From an archaeon (GTDB taxonomy: Archaea; Iainarchaeota; Iainarchaeia; Iainarchaeales; JANQMZ01): 64,000 nt of DNA. A program made the translations under genes and the position numbers. Numbering within the stretch: position 1 is the stretch's first letter; each line of letters starts with the position of its first letter. The stretch lies in assembly GCA_028279805.1 (NCBI GenBank), contig JANQMZ010000007.1, forward strand, positions 409,092 to 473,091, written 5' to 3'. Below the pieces are notes generated by a model. It made no database searches, was not told the origin of the DNA, and was given only the letters and a program-made list of their open reading frames with translations. Of the stretch, positions 23,135 to 32,835 are shown one piece after another.

Positions 23135-24322
23135 ATGGTGGTTATGGATGAGAGAATAGAAGAACATTTTTCAACATTGGACTTAGATTTAAGAAAAACT
23201 AGATTTTCTAGATTTATCGACCAAAAAGTCACTCCAGACGTTTTATCTTTCATTGCAGATTGTATAATGGCACATACTGGAGGAAATGAAGAAAAAAAAT
23301 TTAGAGTAAAGGACATATGGAACTCCGAATACTTCAAAAAAAACGTAATTCAAATATATAGCAAGCCGTCACCAGAAAATGAAACGGCGACACACGAATA
23401 TGACAAGTTTATTGGACAACCTATGAGACTTTTGAACTACGGAAAAATAATAGAATCAGAAAAAAAAGGGAACGCTAATTTTTACTGGTGCTCAAATCCA
23501 GAAATACTCAACTATATATCAATGAATGAAACATATTCATTTAATTTTCTTTATTTATATCTAAAAAAAGTTTTAGATGATAGCGGATTTTTACAACATA
23601 TAGAAAGATATAAGGAAAATGATAACCCGCAAAATTTTAGAGAATTGAAAAATAGGTTTCAAATATTTATTAGAGGGAACACAAAAATAAATACAGATGT
23701 TGAGATAAATAGGATCTTTCCAAAAGTGCTTAACATATTTTCTGTAAAATGGAACATACGAGGAAGTAAAAAGGGAAGAATTTCCAGACACAGATTCAAT
23801 TTTTCAGATTTAACTTACAATGAAATAAATTGGAGAGATATAAAAAAAGACAAGAGAACTACTAGAACAGAGGCACAAAATAGAGAATTGGAAAAAGTAA
23901 AAAAATATGAAAAGTATACTGTTGAAAAAGCCAAAAGGATAATAAGAAAAAAATATAGAGAAACAGAAATAAAAGATCGGTGGGCTGGAGGAAAAGCAAC
24001 ACAAGTGCACCATATTTTTCCGGAACACGAATATCCACAATTTGCAGCTTATCTTGAAAACCTAATAAAACTAACACCAGACCAGCATTTCACGAAAGCA
24101 CACCCAAACAATAGTACAAAAGATATAGATAAAACATATCAACTTGATTTGGTTATAGCTAAAATATACAGCATAGAAGATTCTTTATCAAAAAAAGAAA
24201 CATATTACCATAAAGATAGACTCATAGAACTATTGAACGAAACATTAGGAATCGAAATGTCTCAAATAACCTCCTTTGATGAAATCAGAAAAAAAATAAA
24301 AGAAATTCAACTAAGTTTCTAA
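23135..24322 (+). CDS. Putative HNH-type restriction endonuclease.
   Basis: C-terminal 'QVHHIFPEHEYPQFAAYLENLIKLTPDQHFTKAH' His-Me finger motif. Convergent with the MTase. Confidence 0.5.
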   Translation: MVVMDERIEEHFSTLDLDLRKTRFSRFIDQKVTPDVLSFIADCIMAHTGGNEEKKFRVKDIWNSEYFKKNVIQIYSKPSPENETATHEYDKFIGQPMRLLNYGKIIESEKKGNANFYWCSNPEILNYISMNETYSFNFLYLYLKKVLDDSGFLQHIERYKENDNPQNFRELKNRFQIFIRGNTKINTDVEINRIFPKVLNIFSVKWNIRGSKKGRISRHRFNFSDLTYNEINWRDIKKDKRTTRTEAQNRELEKVKKYEKYTVEKAKRIIRKKYRETEIKDRWAGGKATQVHHIFPEHEYPQFAAYLENLIKLTPDQHFTKAHPNNSTKDIDKTYQLDLVIAKIYSIEDSLSKKETYYHKDRLIELLNETLGIEMSQITSFDEIRKKIKEIQLSF

Positions 24323-26854
24323 TTTTCCGAAAAAATAAATTGAATTGCTATCGATGTTCATAGATCTAGTGCTTCTGTTTCTAGCAACGCTATAAAATTC
24401 TCTGAACTCAGAAGTGCTATAATAATTCAATGTTTTCTCATCAATTTCTGTTCCATTTTTTGGTTGAGCAATAGCCACTGAACCATCACAAATAGCGTTT
24501 TCCGGCATAAAACATGCTCTGGGATAATAAGTAAGATTTGGTATTAAAACAGAATTTCTAGAATTTAAAAATTTTTTAACCGTTAAGGAAGATGCCTCTC
24601 TATTACTGATATATTTATCGTAACCGGAAATATCTTTTATTTTGTTATTCCCAATATTTCTAGATTTTAAAACTCTATATTTTCCTTTGTCGTAAAGAAT
24701 TTTATTTGTAATCTGTCTATCTCTAAAAACTTTGAATATGTCAAATTTCATCTTTTTACTTATTTTATTAAAAAAATTGTTCCTGTAAATTAACCAATAA
24801 GGAAAAATATCTGAAGCCATCTCCAATTGCTCTAAAAATCTTGCGTTTTTAGTTACATAAGACTCTATTTTTACCATATTCTTGGGGGTTCTTCTATTTC
24901 TTTTCAAGATGAACCCAATAGTTTCTATCTTAACATCAAAAGCTTTTTCGCCAAAATCAACAATTTTTACAATGTTATATTGATTCATTAATTCCCTTGT
25001 TTTATTAAATTCAGGAGTAGACAATAAACTTTTTGGGACAATAAATGAAATAAAATCGCCCAATGTTATTGCTCTTTCAATGAAAAAAGAAAAAAGATTA
25101 TTTGTATCTTTGTTATTTTTCCCTCGCTTGTAATGTTTTAACAATTTTTTGTTGTTAACAACTTTTTTAAACGGAGGATTCCCCAATATAACATCATATT
25201 TAAAATTGCCATTATAAAAAATAAAATCAGCGTTTATATATTTTATTTTGAAATTATTTGGGATTCTTAATTTTTTTACTAAAATTTTTAAGAGGGTTAT
25301 TGATTTTTTGTCTATATCTATAACATCTAAACTTACTTTTTTATTGTTTTTATATTTAGCTATAAGTGAGGGTAAAAAATTTCCTGCACCCACTGCGGGT
25401 TCAAGTAAGTGAATCTCTTTCTTGTTCTTAAAATCTGGTAAATCCTTAACAAGAGAAAAACAAATATTTGAGGGGGTATAGTAAGCGGAATTTTTTAATC
25501 TTTTTGCATTAGAAAGTTCGGCGATCTTAGAAAGTGTATTGTATGAATATTTTTTTAGGTTTGTATTAATAAATGACTTAAGCTTACTGTGAGAGTCTAA
25601 TTTGTTTTTTTCTATTATTTTTATTATTTTAGGTTTTGTTAACTCTTGATCTTTCAGTGCCCCTCTTATATTTCCAGCTATTTTTCTAAAAATAATTGTT
25701 GGCACAGCTTCTCCCACACACCTCCTTATGTTCAACTCATTTTTCTTTAAAAAAAATCTTTTCTTGTCCAAAGACTTATGATTGAGCACGTCAAAAGGAA
25801 TTTTTGACCATTTAAAGTTCCTTGGAATTGTCATTAGTTTCATGATTTCTCTAATTGAAAAAACTCTGTGGTCTCTTGGATGTATAGTCCACTGACTTGC
25901 TAAAATATCATTTCTAGTATGTATACAATAAGCTGGTTTATCCCAGTAACATCTTTTGTATTTATCACCACTTTTGTTTTTGTTAAACACTATTTTATCA
26001 TTTTTTATTCTGTGAGGAATTCTAGCACGAGCTCTATTCTCAAAGGCAGATTGCCCTTCTTTCAAATTTTCTATCCATTTAAGCATATATTTTGGAAATT
26101 TTCTATAGGAATGATAAATGTCCGAATAATCTATTTCGCCCATTTTTTTTAAAGGTTTTAATTTTCCAATGGTTTGTCTAACGGTTTTTTCTTTTTCTTT
26201 TGATGGAAAAAGCTCTAATGGGGAAATATCTATTAAATCTTTTCTAACTCCAATTACAAGAGTTCTTGTTCTTTGAGAAGGGCTTCCATAGTCCTTAAAA
26301 TTTATAACTTCAGAATGAACATTATAATTTGTGAGATTTGACTCTATTGCTTCTTTTATTGACTTTAGATTTCCGTCAGAGTCAGTGCATTTTGTATTTA
26401 AAAAAGTCCTAACATTCTCAAACAAAAATATTTTTGGATTAATTTTTTTAGTTACTATTATGGATTCAACTACCAATGAATTTCTTTTTAACTCGTTTTT
26501 TTTATTATGATTCGCTACAGACATTCCCTGACAAGGAGGCGTAGCCACAACAACATCAATTTCTTTTAAGCCGGTCTTTCTTTTCCAATGCTCTGTTTCT
26601 TTGTAAACTTTTTTTTTGATTTTTTCTTGACTCAAGTCTCCTAAAATATATCCTGAATCATGCTCGCATTTATTATTATATTTTTGAATATTGAGTCTTT
26701 CTTCAGAAACTTCGTTTGTAGCTACACAGTTAAATTCTGTAAGATTGAACCCATTACATCCCACACCAGCACCACTGAAAAGGCTTACATAAGAAAGTGT
26801 CTGGCCTTTGCTTGAATCTTTATGGCGAGGCATTTTTTCATTCTCCCTTTCCAA
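24311..26854 (-). CDS. Fused DNA methyltransferase: N-terminal C5-cytosine MTase plus C-terminal gamma-class N6-adenine/N4-cytosine MTase.
   Basis: m5C motifs 'FSGAGVGCNGF' (I), 'PPCQGMS' (IV), 'FLFENVRTF' (VI), 'QRTRTLVIG' (VIII). These are followed by 'LLEPAVGAGNFLP' (I) and 'ILGNPPFKK' (IV). Confidence 0.8.
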   Translation of the reverse strand: MERENEKMPRHKDSSKGQTLSYVSLFSGAGVGCNGFNLTEFNCVATNEVSEERLNIQKYNNKCEHDSGYILGDLSQEKIKKKVYKETEHWKRKTGLKEIDVVVATPPCQGMSVANHNKKNELKRNSLVVESIIVTKKINPKIFLFENVRTFLNTKCTDSDGNLKSIKEAIESNLTNYNVHSEVINFKDYGSPSQRTRTLVIGVRKDLIDISPLELFPSKEKEKTVRQTIGKLKPLKKMGEIDYSDIYHSYRKFPKYMLKWIENLKEGQSAFENRARARIPHRIKNDKIVFNKNKSGDKYKRCYWDKPAYCIHTRNDILASQWTIHPRDHRVFSIREIMKLMTIPRNFKWSKIPFDVLNHKSLDKKRFFLKKNELNIRRCVGEAVPTIIFRKIAGNIRGALKDQELTKPKIIKIIEKNKLDSHSKLKSFINTNLKKYSYNTLSKIAELSNAKRLKNSAYYTPSNICFSLVKDLPDFKNKKEIHLLEPAVGAGNFLPSLIAKYKNNKKVSLDVIDIDKKSITLLKILVKKLRIPNNFKIKYINADFIFYNGNFKYDVILGNPPFKKVVNNKKLLKHYKRGKNNKDTNNLFSFFIERAITLGDFISFIVPKSLLSTPEFNKTRELMNQYNIVKIVDFGEKAFDVKIETIGFILKRNRRTPKNMVKIESYVTKNARFLEQLEMASDIFPYWLIYRNNFFNKISKKMKFDIFKVFRDRQITNKILYDKGKYRVLKSRNIGNNKIKDISGYDKYISNREASSLTVKKFLNSRNSVLIPNLTYYPRACFMPENAICDGSVAIAQPKNGTEIDEKTLNYYSTSEFREFYSVARNRSTRSMNIDSNSIYFFGKLET

Positions 26855-26966: not shown

Positions 26967-27179
26967 TTACTGCGAATTTTTACACTGACATGGATTTCCG
27001 CCAGACATCATTCCGGAAACCCAGTTATGCACTTTCACTTTTCCACATTTTTTACAACTTGCGTTTTTTACAGCTCTGGCGGTTCTTTCGTTCCATTTTT
27101 CCATTATTTTGTCTTCTTCTCTTCTTGAATTCAAAAATTCTTTTAATTCAATTATTTCAGTTTTAGTTAATTCAGTCAT
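26967..27179 (-). CDS. Small Cys-rich (zinc-ribbon-like) hypothetical protein.
   Basis: 'CKKCGK...CQC'. Confidence 0.3.
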   Translation of the reverse strand: MTELTKTEIIELKEFLNSRREEDKIMEKWNERTARAVKNASCKKCGKVKVHNWVSGMMSGGNPCQCKNSQ

Positions 27180-27283: not shown

Positions 27284-27714
27284 TTTTTGATTTTTTATTA
27301 ATCCAAAGGCTTTCTATATTTTTCAATATCTGTGGACATTTTATTATTAAATCTAACATGCTTTGTTAGTGTGTGCTTAAATTTATCAATATCTGATTTT
27401 TTAAAAATTGCTAACTTTGGCTTTTTAGTCTCTGTGTTAAAATGAATAACATACAAATGTGTTGGACGGAACTTTAGACCTGAGGGGGTTTCAATAAATT
27501 CATATATATACGCATCAGGAATTCCTTTGTCCGATTCTGAAGTTTTAACCTCAATTAATCTAGGATCTTCTTTTTTTTTAAATCAACACTTATTATATCC
27601 ATTCCTGAATATTTTCTATTGCTCTGAACATCTGTTGGGAATCGACCATTAGCTGTTTCATATTTAATAACAATATCAATTCCTTTTTGTGCTAAATTTT
27701 TAGTCATTTTTTAC
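27284..27714 (-). pseudogene. PD-(D/E)xK nuclease (Hjc/Vsr-like, about 136 aa) interrupted by a frameshift at an A9/T9 homopolymer (27571-27579).
   Basis: Manual translation gives 47 aa, then a -1/+1 shift, then an 89-aa continuation containing 'MDIISVD...LIEVKTSE'. The track shows no single ORF of 60 aa or more here. Confidence 0.45.
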
Positions 27715-27744: not shown

Positions 27745-30381
27745 CTATTTTTCAACCTGCTCAACCATACTCCTCCAAAGCACTTCATCTTTCTTATTTT
27801 CAATCAAATCTTCTAAGAATGTTTCCGGATTGTTTTTCCATTGCAAAAATTGGTTTATTTTGGTTGAGGCTGTTGTGAACGCTGATTGGGATGGCTGTCT
27901 GTCATCCAGTTTTGATGAAATTGTGCCGTCATTGATTCTTTTTCTTAAACCAATGTAGCCGATGGCTACTTTTATTTTATCCAAGGGAATGTTTTTTGAT
28001 TGAGATAACATTCTTTTGTATAATTCTAATTGTTGCCTGTGATTGGATGAATAATCAGCACTTTTATCTGTTTTCCAGTCCACTATTAGATATTCTTCTC
28101 CGTTGGAAAAAACACTGTCAATTTTTCCGGTAAAATTAATTTCATCTTTTGTGTCAACAATTTTTGAAATTGATAAGGTTATTGTGGTTTCAACTTCTTC
28201 AACATTTGGATAAGTTTTTTTAATTTCTTTAATGAACATCTGAACATTTTTAATAAATGGTTCAGTTTCTTTGGTTTTTTCAAATTTTTGGTTTTTTAAA
28301 ATTTTTTCAGCAGCATTATGAACATCTGAGCCAAGAGTTGAAGCTTTAAACGGAATTGTTTGAATTTTTAAAATCCTGTTAACAAAATAATCATAAGAAC
28401 TTTTAGGCAAAGCACTATAAGAAAGGCGATTAACGCCGGCAAAATGTTTTTTAACAAAATCTTTTAACCAGGGTTTACTATTTTCTAATTCTTGCCGGGC
28501 TTCTTTGAATTGTTTATTTACAAATAAATTAAATGCTCTTTTTTGCAATTCGTTAAAGCTTTCAGGTGATTCTGTTTCAAATTGTAATTCTTGTTTTTCT
28601 GAAAAATCATTCAAAAAATCAGCTGGTTTGCCAGTTAAAATGTAAAGATTTTTTTTGGCTCTGGTAAATGCAACAAAGTTTGAACGCAGTGTTTCTTCTT
28701 CCAGTTCTTCTTCTGCGTTAATTTTTTTGGATTTTAAAATTGCTTCAACAACAGCATCCTGAAAACTTGCACTATTTGAAGATTTTGAAGGAGCAAAAAT
28801 AACTGTTTCAAATTCTTTTCCTTTTGCTTTATGAATTGTTGTTAGAATGATTTTTTGTTCAATGTCTGATTCATTTGCAAAAAGGTCAGCTGATTCTAAA
28901 TAAGCAGTAAAATTGGCTAAATCCTTGTTTTCTAATAAGGAAATGGCTTCATTGCAGGAACTTTGAACATTCTGGGCAGCCAGCAAATATTCTTCTCCAT
29001 AAGTTAAAGCAACCGGTATGATTTTTTCTTTAAATAACAAATTGATATCCTCAATGCTTGAAATTGATTCTCTTAATTGTTTGAATTCCGAGCTTTTTGC
29101 AAAAATATCATTCAATGTTAAATTATAGTTTGAGGATAATTCAAATGCTTCATGCAAGGAAATGGGAAAAAAGCTGGTAAACATTGCGTTTTTAACAAAT
29201 TCAATGTTGTTTGAAAAAATTCCTCGCAGAAAAGTAATAATGTTGTTTTTTGCTTCATTTGAAGCTGAAAAATAAGTGGAAGAATGTTCAATGTTGTGTT
29301 TTTCAAATTCTTTTGAAATTTCCCTTATTTGATTATTTGTTCTGGCAATGACAGCCACTTGGTTTGAATTTTTTAACAATTTTTGAGTTAATGCTCTAAT
29401 TGCCTGGTTTTGATTATCCTGCACATCAAAAATAACCGGTTTTGGTCCTTTTTCTGCTGTTTTGTTTTCAAGGTTTTCTAATGCTTTGATATATTGTTCT
29501 TCTTTTGTTTTTTTAGAAAAATCTTCTTTTGCAAAATTTAAAATTTCGTTTGAACTTCTAAAATTTTCAGTTAAAACAAATTCTTTTGAGTTGTTGAATT
29601 TTTCAAAATTTAAAATGGAGCCTCCTTGAAAACCAAAAATAGCCTGCTTTTGGTCTCCAACCGCAACAAAGTTTTCACAGGATTTCAAGGCAATATCAGC
29701 TTCCAGTTTGTTTACATCCTGCAGTTCGTCAACTAGAACATATTTGAATTTTTTAACATTGTCTAATTCCAAAAATTTTATTAGCAAATCATTGTAATCA
29801 AATCCCTTGTTTGCCTTAATTGTTTCATAATGCTGAAAAATTTTAACAAATTCTTCAAGAAATTGTTCAAGTTCTTCTTTTGAATAATTTTTAAAATCTT
29901 CCAAAAAAGTTTTTGAATCTTGCAAATCAATTGAATCGGGCATGACGCCAAAACTTTTCAAATACCTAATCAGGCTTTCTATTTTTGGAACAATTGTATT
30001 AATCAAATATTCATCGCCGTAGTTTAAAACTTCATTTTGTTTCAAATAATCATAAATTGAATAACGCAAAAGATTTGAGGAAATAATATTATCATTGTCA
30101 ATGTTGTCCAATGCAAACGAATGAAAGGTAAAAACCTGCAATTTTCCCAAATCAATTTCAACTTTTTCATCATTTAAAATTTTAATAATTCGGTTTTCCA
30201 TTTCAGCACGGGCTTTATTGGTAAAAGTCAGGCACAAAATTTCTTCCGGTTTCAAGCCTTTTTTGATTAAATCCACATATTTAAACGCTAATAAGAGGGT
30301 TTTGCCGGTGCCTGGGTTAGCAATAATCAAAGCATTTCCATCATGCTTAATAATTTCTTGCTTTTCTTTATTTGGTTTCAT
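27745..30381 (-). CDS. UvrD/PcrA-like SF1 helicase fused to a C-terminal RecB-family (PD-(D/E)xK) nuclease.
   Basis: Helicase motifs: 'ANPGTGKT' (Walker A), 'VDELQDVN' (motif II), 'AVGDQKQAIFGFQGG' (III), 'NFRSS' (IV), 'TIHKAKGKEFETV' (VI). Nuclease motifs: 'GKIDSVFSNGEEYLIVDWKTDK' and 'QLELYKRM'. Confidence 0.8.
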   Translation of the reverse strand: MKPNKEKQEIIKHDGNALIIANPGTGKTLLLAFKYVDLIKKGLKPEEILCLTFTNKARAEMENRIIKILNDEKVEIDLGKLQVFTFHSFALDNIDNDNIISSNLLRYSIYDYLKQNEVLNYGDEYLINTIVPKIESLIRYLKSFGVMPDSIDLQDSKTFLEDFKNYSKEELEQFLEEFVKIFQHYETIKANKGFDYNDLLIKFLELDNVKKFKYVLVDELQDVNKLEADIALKSCENFVAVGDQKQAIFGFQGGSILNFEKFNNSKEFVLTENFRSSNEILNFAKEDFSKKTKEEQYIKALENLENKTAEKGPKPVIFDVQDNQNQAIRALTQKLLKNSNQVAVIARTNNQIREISKEFEKHNIEHSSTYFSASNEAKNNIITFLRGIFSNNIEFVKNAMFTSFFPISLHEAFELSSNYNLTLNDIFAKSSEFKQLRESISSIEDINLLFKEKIIPVALTYGEEYLLAAQNVQSSCNEAISLLENKDLANFTAYLESADLFANESDIEQKIILTTIHKAKGKEFETVIFAPSKSSNSASFQDAVVEAILKSKKINAEEELEEETLRSNFVAFTRAKKNLYILTGKPADFLNDFSEKQELQFETESPESFNELQKRAFNLFVNKQFKEARQELENSKPWLKDFVKKHFAGVNRLSYSALPKSSYDYFVNRILKIQTIPFKASTLGSDVHNAAEKILKNQKFEKTKETEPFIKNVQMFIKEIKKTYPNVEEVETTITLSISKIVDTKDEINFTGKIDSVFSNGEEYLIVDWKTDKSADYSSNHRQQLELYKRMLSQSKNIPLDKIKVAIGYIGLRKRINDGTISSKLDDRQPSQSAFTTASTKINQFLQWKNNPETFLEDLIENKKDEVLWRSMVEQVEK

Positions 30382-30388
30382 TTGAAAA

Positions 30389-32131
30389 TCACGATGGTTT
30401 TGTCAGCTCTGCTATTTTTTCTATAATTAGATCTGCTCTTTGTTCGATAAAAGCATCAAAATTATCTTTCCAAATGGCAGAATTTTTCTCATAAGGAGGA
30501 ATTAGATTTGACTTTAGGTCTTCTTCATAATGCTTATTCTTTTGTTTTACTTTTTTTTCAAAATAAGATGAAGGATTGTCATTCCCGATTATTTGATTGG
30601 ATTTTTTTGGCAGAAAACAGATATTAACAACACAATCTACTTTATCTTTGTTAGAATTTATAACCGCATTAGATTTTTTGGGAAAAATGTGATGGAGTTC
30701 GCTTTTTTTAGGATTTATGAAAGAATCATAAATTGGAATCTCAGTGTGATTTGTGATGTCAAATGGTTTTTGACTAGCCATTAAACATAGAAGTGATCTG
30801 CAAAAACCACTATTCAAATTTAATTTTTCGCTTAACAATGCCTCTCTATCACTAAAATCTTTTTCAAGTTTAAAGTTAAAATCAGATGCTTTAGTTAGAA
30901 ATTTTTTGAAAAGGTTACAATCATTTTTTATTTCTTCATTAGTTGCCCCCAAGTAATCTGCATTAAACGATTTTGTCCAAAACCAATTTTCAATAGCTTT
31001 TTTTATGTTATCAGATTGTGGATTGTCTTCTAACAAATAAAAGAAATATGCTAGGGAAACTATCATTGGAGAATATGGTAATATTTTTGGAGAAGCAACT
31101 CCAAGTTTGTTTGTTAAAAAAAGTATTGCTTCTTTAAGAGAATTTGATGCTTTATCCCAGTTGTCTTCAAGATCTTTTGACTTTAGTTTAAATAAATCGG
31201 ATTCCTTGCACGCTCCAAATCTAATTAAAGATATTAGTCTTATAATTGAAGTTTCATCCAAATCATCATAATTTAGCTTACCCAATCCTGTTGTTTCATC
31301 ATATAATTGTTCTAAATTGTCTCTCAAATAAAAATCATCAGTGAAAGTGTTAGCTGTTATTAAATCAATAGTTGAAAGTTTCTTTCCACGCATGTTTACT
31401 CTGGTAAATAATTCACACACTTCTTCTATTGGGACATTTTGTAAACTTATTATGGACAAAGAGTAATTTGAACTTAATCTTTCATTCACTTCATGATATA
31501 ATGTTGCAATAGATTTGTCCATATCTCTTAGTTTTAGAAGTAAATCCATGTCCGGTTTTATTAACTTACCCACTTCAACAAAATATTCCTTTTCTTCAGG
31601 ATTTTGTTTTTGAATTTTTTGGAATTCTTTTTCAGTAAAAAATAAGTCAATATCTTTCTTTTTTTCTAAATCCTCCTCTTCAATTTCCTTTTTAGCTGCT
31701 TTTAGAGAAAAATATATTGTGAAATCAATTGGGTTTTTTCTATTTTGAGGTGTTTTTTTGCCGCCCAAACTAGAAACGATCAAAGAAGTTAATCTTTGTT
31801 GTCCATCTAAAACATAGTTGAAAAAAGAACCAGTACGGTCTTGACTAATTGATCTTACAAATTCAAAATTATCAACAATTTGCCGGTTATCAGGAAGTTT
31901 TTGTTCGCTTTCCCAAATTATAAGGCTGCCTATAGGATAATGCTTATATATGCTGTCCCAAAGAGCTTTGATGTCTTTTGGATCCCAAACAAAATGCCTT
32001 TGGAATTTAGGAATAGTGTAATCATATTCAACTTTTGAATTATTATCAGGATTATCTGGAATCATTTCAGAAAGTTTTCTTGAAAACACTGTTATCTTGC
32101 GTTTTTTATACATCAATTCACATCCTTGCAA
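30389..32131 (-). CDS. GmrSD-family protein (DUF262 ParB-like domain plus DUF1524 His-Me finger), a putative type IV modification-dependent nuclease.
   Basis: 'LDGQQRLTSL' DUF262 hallmark and C-terminal 'ELHHIFPKKS'. It lies 7 nt upstream of the helicase gene. Confidence 0.7.
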   Translation of the reverse strand: MQGCELMYKKRKITVFSRKLSEMIPDNPDNNSKVEYDYTIPKFQRHFVWDPKDIKALWDSIYKHYPIGSLIIWESEQKLPDNRQIVDNFEFVRSISQDRTGSFFNYVLDGQQRLTSLIVSSLGGKKTPQNRKNPIDFTIYFSLKAAKKEIEEEDLEKKKDIDLFFTEKEFQKIQKQNPEEKEYFVEVGKLIKPDMDLLLKLRDMDKSIATLYHEVNERLSSNYSLSIISLQNVPIEEVCELFTRVNMRGKKLSTIDLITANTFTDDFYLRDNLEQLYDETTGLGKLNYDDLDETSIIRLISLIRFGACKESDLFKLKSKDLEDNWDKASNSLKEAILFLTNKLGVASPKILPYSPMIVSLAYFFYLLEDNPQSDNIKKAIENWFWTKSFNADYLGATNEEIKNDCNLFKKFLTKASDFNFKLEKDFSDREALLSEKLNLNSGFCRSLLCLMASQKPFDITNHTEIPIYDSFINPKKSELHHIFPKKSNAVINSNKDKVDCVVNICFLPKKSNQIIGNDNPSSYFEKKVKQKNKHYEEDLKSNLIPPYEKNSAIWKDNFDAFIEQRADLIIEKIAELTKPS

Positions 32132-32738
32132 TTTTTCCTGCGTCGGTTAGCTTTAATCCGTCTTTTTCTTCCAGGAGGCCTTTGTGTTTTAATTCTTTTA
32201 CGTTCCGATAAAGCATTGCACGGCTTTGTTTCAAGATTCCTGCTAATTTTGACAGATTTGGTGTTGATTCAATGTTTTCCAGTATTTGCAGTTGTGATTC
32301 GCTTAAATCAAATGACAATATTGGCAAGGTTATTATTTGGTTTTCATCAGCAGGGCAATAATAAATGTTTTTGATTTTCTTAGACCGGGAATAAGAGCCA
32401 AATAATAATCCTAATGCTTGTGTTTTTTTGCTTGGTGTGATGTTTACAAAAATTTCATCGTCTTTTGGAAGAACATCAATAATGTTGACGCATTCTTTTG
32501 CAATTTTAACAATGTCATACAATTCAATTTTTCTTTGCTTTACTTCAAGAACATTTCCAAAGCTTTCAACAATTGAATCAATTGTTTTTTGTTGGGTTTT
32601 ATTAGGCTTTTTGTCCACAAGCAAAAAAATCCTGTCAATTCCAAGCTTTGTTGTAAGCAAGACAATTGAATCGCTTGAATAAGTTGTTGTTATTAGTACC
32701 TTAGCCATTTGAAGCCTCTTTATAATAAAAACAGCCAA
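32118..32738 (-). CDS. Csa3-like regulator: N-terminal CARF-like Rossmann domain plus C-terminal winged HTH.
   Basis: N terminus 'MAKVLITTTYSSDSIVLLTTKLG', a glycine-rich loop 'TQALGLLFGS', and a C-terminal wHTH 'LYRNVKELKHKGLLEE'. It overlaps the GmrSD gene start by 14 nt. Confidence 0.4.
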   Translation of the reverse strand: MAVFIIKRLQMAKVLITTTYSSDSIVLLTTKLGIDRIFLLVDKKPNKTQQKTIDSIVESFGNVLEVKQRKIELYDIVKIAKECVNIIDVLPKDDEIFVNITPSKKTQALGLLFGSYSRSKKIKNIYYCPADENQIITLPILSFDLSESQLQILENIESTPNLSKLAGILKQSRAMLYRNVKELKHKGLLEEKDGLKLTDAGKIARM

Positions 32739-32795
32739 AATTTAAATAGTTTACTAATAATGCAATTATTGTAATGAAAAAGAGAATTGTATACT

Positions 32796-32812
32796 ATAAA
32801 CGATACGTTTAT
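32796..32812. promoter_or_regulatory. Palindrome ATAAACG-ATA-CGTTTAT in the divergent promoter region.
   Basis: It lies between the Csa3-like gene and the 32836 ORF, next to a TATATAT stretch. Confidence 0.4.
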
Positions 32813-32835
32813 ATATTTTCTTGTGTTATATTTAA

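What the first reader, a model, noticed from the sequence alone, without database searches (positions are those of the whole stretch)
27745..32812. Candidate defense operon under a CARF regulator: Csa3-like regulator, GmrSD-like DUF262/DUF1524 protein and UvrD-type helicase fused to a RecB nuclease
Three co-directional genes overlap or abut (14-nt overlap, then a 7-nt gap), which suggests a single operon. The first is a 206-aa protein with a CARF-like Rossmann N terminus and a C-terminal wHTH (Csa3 architecture). The second is a 580-aa protein carrying the DUF262 'DGQQR' hallmark and a C-terminal DUF1524 'HHIFP' His-Me finger (GmrSD/SspE/BrxU-like). The third is an 878-aa SF1 helicase whose C terminus holds a RecB-type nuclease ('IVDWKTDK...QLELYK'). 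The window has no CRISPR array and no cas genes. A CARF regulator leading a GmrSD-plus-helicase-nuclease module does not match the standard layout of the named systems I can recall (Gabija = OLD-ATPase plus UvrD, Hachiman = HamA plus helicase, Nhi = single protein). It could be an undescribed modification-dependent or cOA-signal-tuned immunity module in a tiny-genome archaeon. The palindrome at 32796-32812 in its promoter could be the Csa3-like operator.
Basis: partly seen in the sequence, partly recalled or inferred. Interest (0 to 1): 0.85.

Follow-up and report, generated by a model that had tools for sequence, protein, structure and literature searches.

The report
Csa3-led variable defence gene cassette
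A small archaeal genome carries an operon in which a CRISPR-type sensor-regulator (Csa3) sits in front of two DNA-cutting defence genes, and across related archaea the same regulator and promoter lead many different nuclease and helicase genes, so this is a regulated plug-in defence slot, not a new fixed three-gene system.

Summary
Three tightly packed minus-strand genes encode a Csa3-family CARF-wHTH regulator (32118-32708), a BrxU/GmrSD-type type IV restriction enzyme (30389-32113) and a UvrD helicase fused to a RecB-type PD-(D/E)XK nuclease (27745-30381). The 64-kb archaeal window has no CRISPR array or cas gene.

The exact trio recurs in one other lineage. Each effector occurs alone or with other partners, and their closest homologues sit in unrelated contexts. 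BrxU-type enzymes work alone, and the helicase-nuclease fusion is a published ancillary defence family.

What is conserved is the regulator as first gene of an operon: 45/49 loci, median gap 10 nt. Its cargo is interchangeable (nucleases, helicases, R-M). It is preceded by a regular promoter unit, TATA-YN-TTTCTAY-N6-GTAKA, found in 37/82 upstream regions against 5/679 controls.

Best reading: a Csa3-controlled variable defence cassette beside a type II R-M. Novelty: new variant of a known kind. The ligand and its source are unknown.

The parts
32118..32708 (-). Csa3-family regulator (N-terminal CARF domain, C-terminal winged HTH), 196 aa from ATG 32708. The mechanical ORF extends to TTG 32738.
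   Evidence: TIGR01884 72.7 bits (cutoff 60.2), PADLOC CARF3 3.7e-61, Pfam HFX_2341_N. AF2 pLDDT 91.8, and Foldseek top hits are Sso Csa3 6wxq/2wte/6w11. Start site set by the family alignment.
30389..32113 (-). BrxU/GmrSD-type type IV restriction enzyme: N-terminal DUF262 NTPase-like domain, helical linker and C-terminal His-Me finger nuclease. 574 aa from ATG 32113; alternative start TTG 32131.
   Evidence: Pfam GmrSD_N 1.9e-30; PADLOC HEC-05 3.9e-41 and PDC-M55C 2e-46 over the full length. PDB BrxU 7p9k at 6.8e-13, or 7e-31 with a profile. Invariant IPxFQR, DGQQR, HHxFP, N497 and N506.
27745..30381 (-). SF1 UvrD/PcrA-type helicase fused to a C-terminal RecB-type PD-(D/E)XK nuclease, 878 aa. 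The nuclease domain has no cysteines, so it has no Cas4-type Fe-S cluster.
   Evidence: Pfam UvrD-helicase, UvrD_C and PDDEXK_1. PDB profile hits PcrA, UvrD, Rep, AddA, RecB and GajB. Invariant catalytic motifs. Family described in PMC5704561.
27298..27707 (-). Probable fourth gene of the unit, disrupted: a small NOV_C/DUF3883-type PD-(D/E)XK domain ORF broken by a frameshift at a poly-A run near 27555-27565.
   Evidence: Two consecutive ORF pieces, 27555-27707 and 27298-27456. The repaired 136-aa translation hits Pfam NOV_C at 27.4 bits (cutoff 22.1). Whether the frameshift is real or a sequencing error is unknown.
32789..32815 (-). Candidate promoter/operator unit: TATA-like box 1 (32808-32815), GTATC (32802-32806) and GTATAC (32789-32794).
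   Evidence: Conserved in the nine closest relatives. The wider family has TWTWTAAA-YN-TTTCTAY-N6-GTAKA in 37/82 upstream regions against 5/679 control intergenic regions, with the spacer 6 nt in 36/37. Function is inferred, not shown.
32741..32748 (-). Second TATA-like box (TATTTAAA), 32 nt upstream of the Csa3 ATG. Probably the proximal core promoter of the operon.
   Evidence: Read directly from the sequence. A second TATA-like box at a similar position is conserved in relatives. Inferred.
24311..26854 (-). Neighbouring module, not part of the operon: fused C5-cytosine and N6-adenine DNA methyltransferase of a type II R-M.
   Evidence: Pfam DNA_methylase 2e-40 and Eco57I 5e-14; PADLOC MTase_II 3.7e-229 over the full length; weak NCBIfam hit to the Alw26I/Eco31I/Esp3I family.
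23135..24322 (+). Neighbouring module: type II restriction endonuclease, convergent with the methyltransferase and overlapping it.
   Evidence: PADLOC REase_II 2e-104.

Best explanation
WHAT IT IS
The locus is a Csa3-controlled variable defence cassette inside a small defence island.

HOW IT LIKELY WORKS
1. A dimeric Csa3-family CARF-wHTH regulator is the first gene of the transcription unit.
2. It probably binds the GTATC/GTATAC boxes next to the TATA box in its own upstream region (inferred). That would set the expression of itself and of whatever cargo lies behind it.
3. Its CARF pocket is conserved across the family. It presumably senses a nucleotide-derived signal that changes regulator activity on infection. 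The ligand and its source are unknown.

CARGO IN THIS GENOME
- A BrxU/GmrSD-type type IV restriction enzyme. It has an NTP-dependent DUF262 domain and a His-Me nuclease, and is expected to cut modified foreign DNA. It is self-sufficient by analogy with BrxU.
- A UvrD-RecB-type helicase-nuclease. It is expected to load at DNA ends or nicks and unwind and degrade DNA. Genomic context marks it as an ancillary enzyme used with many defence modules.
- A broken small NOV_C-type nuclease gene.

The adjacent type II R-M covers unmodified DNA. The island therefore gives complementary coverage, as BREX plus BrxU does on pEFER.

STATUS OF THE STEPS
- Shown: gene order, domain identities, family-wide operon leadership, variable cargo, and the conserved promoter motif.
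- Inferred: DNA binding at that motif, ligand control, defence activity, and any cooperation between the two effectors.
For: - Domain identities.
- The regulator leads an operon. The next gene is co-directional in 45/49 non-redundant loci against a background of 65% (p = 4e-5), with a median gap of 10 nt against 44. The upstream neighbour is co-directional in only 12/70 (p = 1e-15).
- The cargo is variable and rich in nucleases, helicases and R-M genes. Of 128 cargo proteins: PDDEXK_1 15, UvrD 8, N6_Mtase 6, GmrSD_N 5, DUF2779/Cas4-like 4, DUF4268 4, ResIII 4, YhcG 3, SNF2 3, MmeI 3. The 64 upstream neighbours are mainly AAA ATPases and TPR proteins.
- The promoter motif is roughly 50-fold enriched upstream of Csa3. 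It has a fixed 6-nt spacer and a fixed offset from the TATA box. The window's variant is shared with its nearest relatives.
- Invariant or nearly invariant residues after strand 1 (T8, Y10) and after strand 4 (N89, T91, K95, T96) lie where CARF pockets form. Csa3 motifs are described in PMC8699464.
- The effectors are independent.
- Literature: PMC5704561 and bioRxiv 10.1101/2024.01.29.577857.
- Cargo GC (0.285-0.305) is lower than that of the regulator (0.332) and the flanks.
Against: - There is no experimental evidence for any step.
- In the window the pocket motif reads ITPSKK where the family consensus has ITPGRK.
- Sso Csa3a bound its reported palindromes non-specifically and independently of cA4 in vitro (PMC8699464). 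Operator logic for Csa3 proteins is therefore not firmly established.
- The conserved motif lies between two TATA-like boxes in a mostly divergent promoter region, so it could control the divergent gene instead of, or as well as, the Csa3 operon.
- No cOA synthase was found, and DPANN archaea mostly lack CRISPR-Cas (PMC12988326, PMC5704561).
- Short intergenic gaps are common in these compact genomes: 53% of background gaps are 50 nt or less.
- Counts for the UvrD cargo are inflated, because 6 of the 8 UvrD cases come from loci fetched with the helicase as the query.
Confidence: 0.6

Rival explanations
1. One reading: the three genes are one obligate, undescribed defence system. In it the GmrSD-like enzyme and the helicase-nuclease work as a complex under CARF control.
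For: Tight packing: a 14-nt overlap or 4-nt gap, then a 7-nt gap. The same order recurs in Diapherotrites CG11, with 56%, 53% and 51% identity for the three proteins.
Against: There is only one other lineage with the trio. Other GmrSD subfamily members lack both partners. Most helicase-nuclease loci lack both. The nearest homologues of each part are in other contexts. BrxU-type enzymes defend alone.
Confidence: 0.1
2. A plain defence island. The three genes are unrelated neighbours packed together in a compact genome, and the Csa3-like protein regulates only itself or distant targets, not the downstream genes.
For: Gene packing is generally tight in these genomes. The effectors are independently mobile. 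The conserved motif occurs only upstream of Csa3 and not before cargo genes.
Against: The regulator is promoter-proximal far more often than chance allows, and it is coupled more tightly than background to the next gene. There is no room for a promoter between the three genes in the window.
Confidence: 0.15
3. A DNA repair or recombination operon, not a defence one. Csa3a is known to activate DNA repair genes, and a UvrD-RecB nuclease could process DNA ends for the host.
For: Csa3a activates DNA repair genes in Sulfolobus (Liu et al. 2017, cited in PMC5704561). The helicase-nuclease resembles AddA and RecB.
Against: The partner is a type IV restriction enzyme. Family-wide cargo includes R-M methyltransferases, MmeI-type enzymes, RhuM, YhcG and pAgo- or Cas12a-adjacent cases. 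The contexts of the helicase-nuclease are patchy and HGT-like across archaea and bacteria.
Confidence: 0.08
4. A remnant of a type V-A CRISPR-Cas neighbourhood. The regulator and helicase-nuclease once accompanied cas12a and an array, as in L012, and these have since been lost.
For: L012 has Csa3, two genes, UvrD-nuclease, Cas12a, Cas4, Cas1, Cas2 and an array, all co-directional. L085 has a V-A-type array directly after the helicase-nuclease. The Csa3 promoter motif partly resembles the V-A repeat stem-loop.
Against: Only 2 of 168 loci have arrays and only 1 has cas genes. The window shows no trace of cas genes or repeats. The motif differs from the repeat in spacer length (6 against 4 nt) and mostly in the right arm (GTATA in 31/37).
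Confidence: 0.07

Closest known systems
Csa3 (CARF3) transcription factors of Sulfolobales (Csa3a, Csa3b; PDB 2WTE, 6W11, 6WXQ)
   Same: CARF plus winged-HTH architecture. Best structural match and NCBIfam family hit. A repeat-type DNA motif next to a TATA box, as with CAPPa. A conserved pocket-forming loop after strand 4.
   Different: Not next to type I-A or any CRISPR-cas locus in the window. It leads non-CRISPR nuclease, helicase and R-M cargo. Only about 18-19% identical to Sso Csa3. The pocket motifs have diverged. The ligand is unknown, and the clade is DPANN-centred, a group mostly lacking CRISPR-Cas.
BrxU / GmrSD type IV restriction enzymes (PADLOC HEC-05; PDB 7P9K)
   Same: DUF262 domain with IPxFQR and DGQQR, an LWDS motif aligned to BrxU's RLFDS, a C-terminal HH..N..N His-Me finger, similar length, and a full-length profile match.
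   Different: Not embedded in BREX, Hma or type I R-M. It sits behind a CARF regulator. Pfam does not call DUF1524. Substrate specificity is untested.
UvrD-Cas4-like helicase-nuclease fusions (Hudaiberdiev et al. 2017, PMC5704561)
   Same: An SF1 UvrD helicase fused to a pfam12705 nuclease. Patchy distribution in mesophilic archaea and bacteria. Stand-alone or in variable defence contexts, for example type III R-M in L171.
   Different: Here it follows a GmrSD gene and a Csa3 regulator, contexts not listed in that paper. The nuclease domain has no cysteines, so it is RecB-like and not Cas4 proper.
Gabija (GajA OLD-family ATPase-nuclease plus GajB UvrD-like helicase)
   Same: The helicase core matches GajB profiles (PADLOC 6e-41). 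In the Diapherotrites trio an OLD/TOPRIM ATPase directly follows the helicase-nuclease.
   Different: There is no OLD-family gene in the window. The helicase carries its own nuclease and is about 380 aa longer than GajB. The gene order in Diapherotrites is reversed relative to gajA-gajB.
Regulator-led or embedded defence genes (BrxR/WYL-type regulators; genes embedded in BREX, Hma or R-M operons)
   Same: A ligand-sensing HTH regulator heads the defence genes. The cargo is co-oriented and interchangeable (discussion).
   Different: The sensor is a CARF domain of the Csa3 family and not WYL. The host clade is DPANN archaea. The promoter/operator unit is conserved across phyla.

Membership tests
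Csa3 (CARF3) family | N-terminal CARF (Rossmann-like) fold | tested here: met
   AF2 pLDDT 91.8. Foldseek top hits are Csa3 6wxq/2wte/6w11 (E about 2e-9), followed by Crn1-type proteins, Can2, Csm6, Cam1 and Cad1, all CARF. PADLOC CARF3 3.7e-61.
Csa3 (CARF3) family | [quoted passage not shown] | tested here: met
   The profile hits MarR/AdcR and Lrs14 HTH structures over residues 111-185. Helix-helix-helix-strand-strand topology in the model. TIGR01884 above cutoff.
Csa3 (CARF3) family | Conserved ligand pocket motifs, and cA4 binding | tested here: inconclusive
   The loops after strands 1 and 4 are the most conserved CARF segments (T8, Y10, N89, T91, K95, T96). The motifs differ from Sso Csa3 (T-h-G-F-D/N-E-x4-R and L-x2-G-h-R). 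Ligand binding cannot be tested here.
Csa3 (CARF3) family | Genomic linkage to CRISPR-cas (classically type I-A) | tested here: not met
   No array or cas gene in the 64-kb window. Among 168 related loci, two have V-A arrays and only one (L012) has cas genes. The rest of the 853-kb genome could not be inspected.
GmrSD / BrxU type IV restriction enzymes | N-terminal DUF262 domain with the DGQQR and (I)PxFQR motifs | tested here: met
   Pfam GmrSD_N 1.9e-30. The motifs are invariant in 26 homologues. BrxU 7p9k at 7e-31 with a profile.
GmrSD / BrxU type IV restriction enzymes | C-terminal DUF1524 His-Me finger nuclease | tested here: inconclusive
   Pfam gave no DUF1524 hit at E <= 0.01, and the PDB sequence alignments stop at about residue 360. 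However, H474, H475, F477, P478, N497 and N506 are invariant, and the HEC-05 profile aligns to residue 577.
GmrSD / BrxU type IV restriction enzymes | Modification-dependent DNA cleavage | not testable with these tools
   Needs biochemistry or a phage/virus challenge.
UvrD-Cas4-like fusion family (pfam12705 branch) | SF1 UvrD helicase core fused to a C-terminal PD-(D/E)XK nuclease with D, (D/E)xK and QxxxY motifs | tested here: met
   Pfam hits. Invariant GxGKT, DELQD, D755, D768-W-K770 and Q784-L-x2-Y788.
Cas4 proper | Four-cysteine Fe-S cluster in the nuclease domain | tested here: not met
   No cysteine in residues 640-878 (translation). TIGR00372 cas4 scores 28 bits against a cutoff of 65.
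Gabija | Adjacent GajA (OLD-family ATPase with TOPRIM nuclease) | tested here: not met
   No such ORF in 23-33 kb. The 890-nt stretch after the helicase gene holds only the broken NOV_C gene and a 70-aa ORF.
Type V-A CRISPR-Cas | cas12a, adaptation genes and an array with the ...AATTTCTACTGTTGTAGAT repeat | tested here: not met
   tblastn with the L012 Cas12a, Cas4, Cas1 and Cas2 proteins found nothing in the window. No array.
PADLOC candidate PDC-M55 | Presence of components A and B beside component C | not tested
   Only component C (the DUF262 protein) matched, at 2e-46. No description of the candidate's composition was found.

The most novel reading that the evidence does not exclude
Across DPANN and neighbouring archaea, one clade of Csa3/CARF regulators, together with a fixed promoter-operator unit, acts as a conserved 'socket'. 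It drives interchangeable nuclease, helicase, R-M, GmrSD and sometimes Cas12a-adjacent cargo. These lineages mostly lack type III CRISPR, so the CARF sensor would respond to a signal not made by Cas10. Candidates are a virus-derived nucleotide, or a host-derived one given the episymbiotic lifestyle. That would make this a CRISPR-independent CARF signalling pathway that induces innate defences.
Probability: 0.25. Interest if true: 0.8.

Novelty: new variant of a known kind. Interest (0 to 1): 0.5.

Why it matters
CARF sensors are understood almost entirely as receivers of cyclic oligoadenylates made by type III CRISPR systems. Here a well-conserved Csa3 clade consistently heads non-CRISPR defence genes, in archaea that mostly lack CRISPR. 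It comes with a conserved, easily testable promoter element. If the regulator does switch this cassette on in response to a ligand, it would show CARF signalling used outside CRISPR. It would also point to an unknown signal source. Finally, it would provide a simple anchor (regulator plus motif) for finding new archaeal defence genes in the variable slot. Several recurrent cargo families (c27, c51, and the 98-aa and 428-aa genes of L012) have no Pfam match.

Tried and rejected
The rest of the 853-kb genome could not be inspected for CRISPR-Cas or cyclases.
- The 2020 CARF classification paper could not be retrieved by DOI or by a guessed PMC id. What it says about the contexts of this CARF3 subfamily is unknown to me. 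This matters for novelty, because PADLOC already holds an HMM (PDLC01849) that matches this subfamily end to end.
- A literature search for PDC-M55 found nothing.
- A tRNA-Asp-linked integration site was considered. No att-like repeat of 12 nt or more was found.
- The palindrome as a stand-alone signal was rejected as non-significant.
- The Gabija reading was rejected for the window because there is no OLD-family gene.
- The PADLOC summary of cargo proteins was swamped by redundant GajB models and was uninformative beyond UvrD.
- The viral-contig scan gave a single hit, on a contig of the same length (17,722 nt) as metagenome locus L166. A viral origin of the cassette is not supported.


Full report
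OBSERVATION

The three minus-strand ORFs are present as described.

Two start sites need adjusting. The family alignment and the database gene calls place the regulator's start at ATG 32708 (196 aa). They place the GmrSD-like start at ATG 32113 (574 aa). The junctions are therefore either a 14-nt overlap or a 4-nt gap, then a 7-nt gap. Neither leaves room for an internal promoter.

The window is archaeal. It has split RNA polymerase A'/A'' and B'/B'' subunits and archaeal-type uS7 and uS12. It comes from an 853-kb contig. I found no CRISPR array, no cas gene, and no defence-family hit in the 64 ORFs scanned outside 23-33 kb except one weak 'mad2' match.

THE THREE PROTEINS

Regulator.
- It scores above the curated cutoff for NCBIfam TIGR01884 (Csa3): 72.7 bits against 60.2.
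- It matches a PADLOC CARF3 model end to end at 3.7e-61.
- A confident AlphaFold model (pLDDT 91.8) has as best PDB matches S. solfataricus Csa3, free and cA4-bound. These are followed only by other CARF proteins.
- The C-terminal third matches MarR- and Lrs14-type winged HTH domains.

GmrSD-like protein. It is a BrxU-type enzyme.
- Pfam GmrSD_N scores 1.9e-30.
- PADLOC HEC-05 scores 3.9e-41 over residues 35-577. HEC-05 is the BrxU family (bioRxiv 10.1101/2024.01.29.577857).
- BrxU 7P9K is the only close solved relative.
- Pfam did not call DUF1524. However, H474-H475-x-F-P, N497 and N506 are invariant in 26 homologues down to 27% identity, together with IPxFQR and DGQQR.

Helicase-nuclease. 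It has all the UvrD/PcrA motifs and a C-terminal PDDEXK_1 domain with invariant D, DxK and QxxxY. The nuclease domain has no cysteines, so it is RecB-like and not Cas4 proper.

IS THE TRIO A SYSTEM?

I fetched 80 species-level loci anchored on the helicase-nuclease and 80 metagenomic loci anchored on the regulator. I also fetched the neighbourhoods of the closest homologues.

The exact trio recurs in one lineage only, Diapherotrites CG11. There an OLD/TOPRIM ATPase and an MmeI-type enzyme follow it.

The parts otherwise occur separately:
- Other members of the GmrSD subfamily stand alone, beside type I R-M, beside a Dcm-Vsr-HATPase set, behind a small PD-(D/E)XK gene, or near an integrase.
- About 70 of the 80 helicase-nuclease loci have no Csa3 gene in the stretch fetched, up to 10 kb either side, shorter on small contigs.
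- The helicase-nuclease occurs in DPANN, Thermoplasmatota, Altiarchaeota, Nitrososphaerales, Dadabacteria and Thermodesulfobacteriota, in changing contexts. These include type III R-M, a Piwi-domain protein, conjugation genes and a complete type V-A CRISPR-Cas locus.

This is the picture published for the UvrD-Cas4-like fusion: monophyletic, stand-alone or in non-conserved defence contexts, and probably ancillary (PMC5704561). The three genes are therefore not an obligate system.

WHAT IS CONSERVED

The regulator is conserved as leader of an operon with interchangeable cargo. In 49 non-redundant loci with at least 1.5 kb downstream:
- The next gene is co-directional in 45 (92%, against a 65% background; p = 4e-5).
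- The median gap is 10 nt, against 44 nt for background.
- The upstream neighbour is co-directional in only 12 of 70 (p = 1e-15).

The 128 cargo proteins are dominated by PD-(D/E)XK nucleases, UvrD and SF2 helicases, N6 methyltransferases, MmeI-type enzymes, GmrSD, DUF2779/Cas4-like, DUF4268, YhcG and RhuM. The 64 upstream neighbours are mainly AAA ATPases and TPR proteins.

One caveat applies. Six of the eight UvrD cargo cases come from helicase-anchored loci. In the regulator-anchored set UvrD is cargo in only two loci.

In the window, cargo GC (0.285-0.305) is lower than that of the regulator (0.332) and the flanks. This fits later acquisition of the cargo.

THE PALINDROME AND THE PROMOTER

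It is not significant alone. Ten percent of shuffles of the AT-rich spacer give one as good.

Upstream regions of the regulator family, however, share a regular unit: TWTWTAAA-YN-TTTCTAY-N6-GTAKA.
- It is present in 37 of 82 upstream regions against 5 of 679 control intergenic regions.
- The spacer is 6 nt in 36 of 37 cases.
- It lies 72-145 nt upstream of the start codon, 93-145 nt in 36 of the 37.
- It occurs almost nowhere else in 1.7 Mb of related loci.

The window and its eight nearest relatives carry a variant. This variant is a TATA box, then GTAT(C/A), then AGTA(T/G)A(C) about 12 nt later, then a second TATA-like box. In the window these lie at 32808-32815, 32802-32806, 32789-32794 and 32741-32748.

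The palindrome as such recurs only in L105.

Because it lies between two TATA-like boxes in a usually divergent promoter region, I cannot say which promoter it controls. Known Csa3a sites are also palindromes next to BRE/TATA, although specific binding was not reproduced in vitro (PMC8699464).

MECHANISM

I propose the following, with shown and inferred steps kept apart.

Shown:
- A Csa3-type sensor-regulator is the first gene of a tight operon.
- The operon also contains a self-sufficient BrxU-type restriction enzyme, a helicase-nuclease and a broken small NOV_C nuclease gene (27298-27707).
- The operon lies next to a type II R-M with a fused m5C/m6A methyltransferase.

Inferred:
- The regulator binds the GTAT boxes and sets expression of the unit.
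- Its conserved CARF pocket responds to a nucleotide-type signal.
- The GmrSD-like enzyme cuts modified DNA while the R-M handles unmodified DNA.
- The helicase-nuclease degrades DNA from the resulting ends, or acts independently.

The ligand source is the main gap. No cyclase or Cas10 was seen, and DPANN archaea mostly lack CRISPR-Cas (PMC12988326; PMC5704561).

COMPARISON AND NOVELTY

Each protein belongs to a known family, and the helicase-nuclease and BrxU families are already tied to defence. No named multi-gene system matches the layout:
- Gabija fails for lack of an OLD-family gene.
- Type V-A CRISPR-Cas fails for lack of cas12a and an array.
- The composition of PADLOC PDC-M55 could not be checked.

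What appears new is the family-wide pattern. A Csa3 clade with a conserved promoter unit heads variable non-CRISPR defence cargo. I found no paper describing this. I could not read the 2020 CARF census, though, and PADLOC already carries an HMM for this subfamily.

I rate the finding a new variant of a known kind, with moderate interest (0.5). The most novel reading that my evidence does not exclude is CRISPR-independent CARF signalling that drives a plug-in defence slot. I give it about a 25% probability; it would be of high interest if true.

Noticed in passing
window 27298-27707 (-): The 'empty' 565 nt after the helicase gene holds a small NOV_C/DUF3883-type PD-(D/E)XK gene split by a frameshift at a poly-A run. 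The repaired translation passes Pfam's cutoff (27.4 against 22.1 bits). It could be a pseudogene, a sequencing error or programmed slippage.
   Followed up: partly
L012 7765-20176 (Woesearchaeota archaeon Tobar13.5m-G65): Csa3, two unknown genes (98 and 428 aa), the UvrD-nuclease, then Cas12a, Cas4, Cas1, Cas2 and an 8-repeat array (repeat GTCTAATCGATTACTATAATTTCTACTGTTGTAGAT), all co-directional. The helicase-nuclease sits directly upstream of a type V-A system.
   Followed up: partly
L085 11074-11705 (Undinarchaeota): A 10-repeat V-A-type CRISPR array begins about 40 nt after the helicase-nuclease gene, at the end of the contig. No cas genes are visible on the part held.
   Followed up: no
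Csa3 upstream regions of about 37 loci, compared with the L012 and L085 arrays: The Csa3 promoter motif (ATTTCTAY-N6-GTAKA) partly resembles the Cas12a repeat stem-loop (AATTTCTAC-TGTT-GTAGAT). The motif regex, derived only from Csa3 promoters, picked out both CRISPR arrays among 1.7 Mb. Spacer length and the usual right arm differ, so this may be coincidence, or a hint that this Csa3 clade recognises V-A repeat-like DNA.
   Followed up: partly
L027, L038, L041 (Micrarchaeota, Bathyarchaeota): A protein of about 760 aa with a weak Piwi-domain hit (E = 3e-5, below Pfam's cutoff) lies directly upstream of, and co-directional with, the helicase-nuclease. This is a possible pAgo-helicase-nuclease pairing.
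   Followed up: no
L004-L006, L057, L099 (Diapherotrites CG11): In the only other trio, an OLD-family ATPase with a TOPRIM domain (689 aa) directly follows the helicase-nuclease, and an MmeI-type enzyme comes next. This is a Gabija-like pairing in reversed order, with a nuclease-bearing helicase.
   Followed up: partly
window 23135-26854: Type II R-M with a fused C5-cytosine/N6-adenine methyltransferase (847 aa) and a convergent endonuclease overlapping it by 12 nt. There is a weak NCBIfam hit to the Alw26I/Eco31I/Esp3I family. From memory, these are type IIS enzymes whose methyltransferases modify C on one strand and A on the other. A host m5C methylase thus sits next to a modification-dependent enzyme.
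   Followed up: no
about 20 regulator loci (e.g. L114 2682-4253): A two-domain AAA ATPase of about 500 aa (cluster c2; Pfam AAA, with weak nSTAND3 hits) is the recurrent divergent upstream neighbour of the Csa3 gene. It is absent from the window, where a 152-aa ORF without any Pfam hit takes that position.
   Followed up: no
L169 (contig of P0244, the helicase homologue 60% identical to the window's): The helicase-nuclease lies next to TrbC and TrbL-type conjugation genes with a divergent Csa3 gene 1.5 kb away. Some copies therefore appear to ride on conjugative elements.
   Followed up: no
window 26967-27179 (-): A 70-aa ORF with a CxxC...CxC pattern lies between the broken NOV_C gene and the methyltransferase. 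It could be a small zinc-ribbon regulator of the R-M. Only insignificant family hits were found.
   Followed up: no
window, outside 23-33 kb: One of the 64 remaining window proteins matches the PADLOC model 'mad2' at 3.7e-8. The summary output does not say which protein.
   Followed up: no
recurrent cargo clusters c27 (e.g. L119 6176-7528) and c51 (e.g. L135 3224-3916): Recurrent cargo families directly behind Csa3 with no Pfam match at all. These are candidates for unknown defence genes in the variable slot.
   Followed up: no
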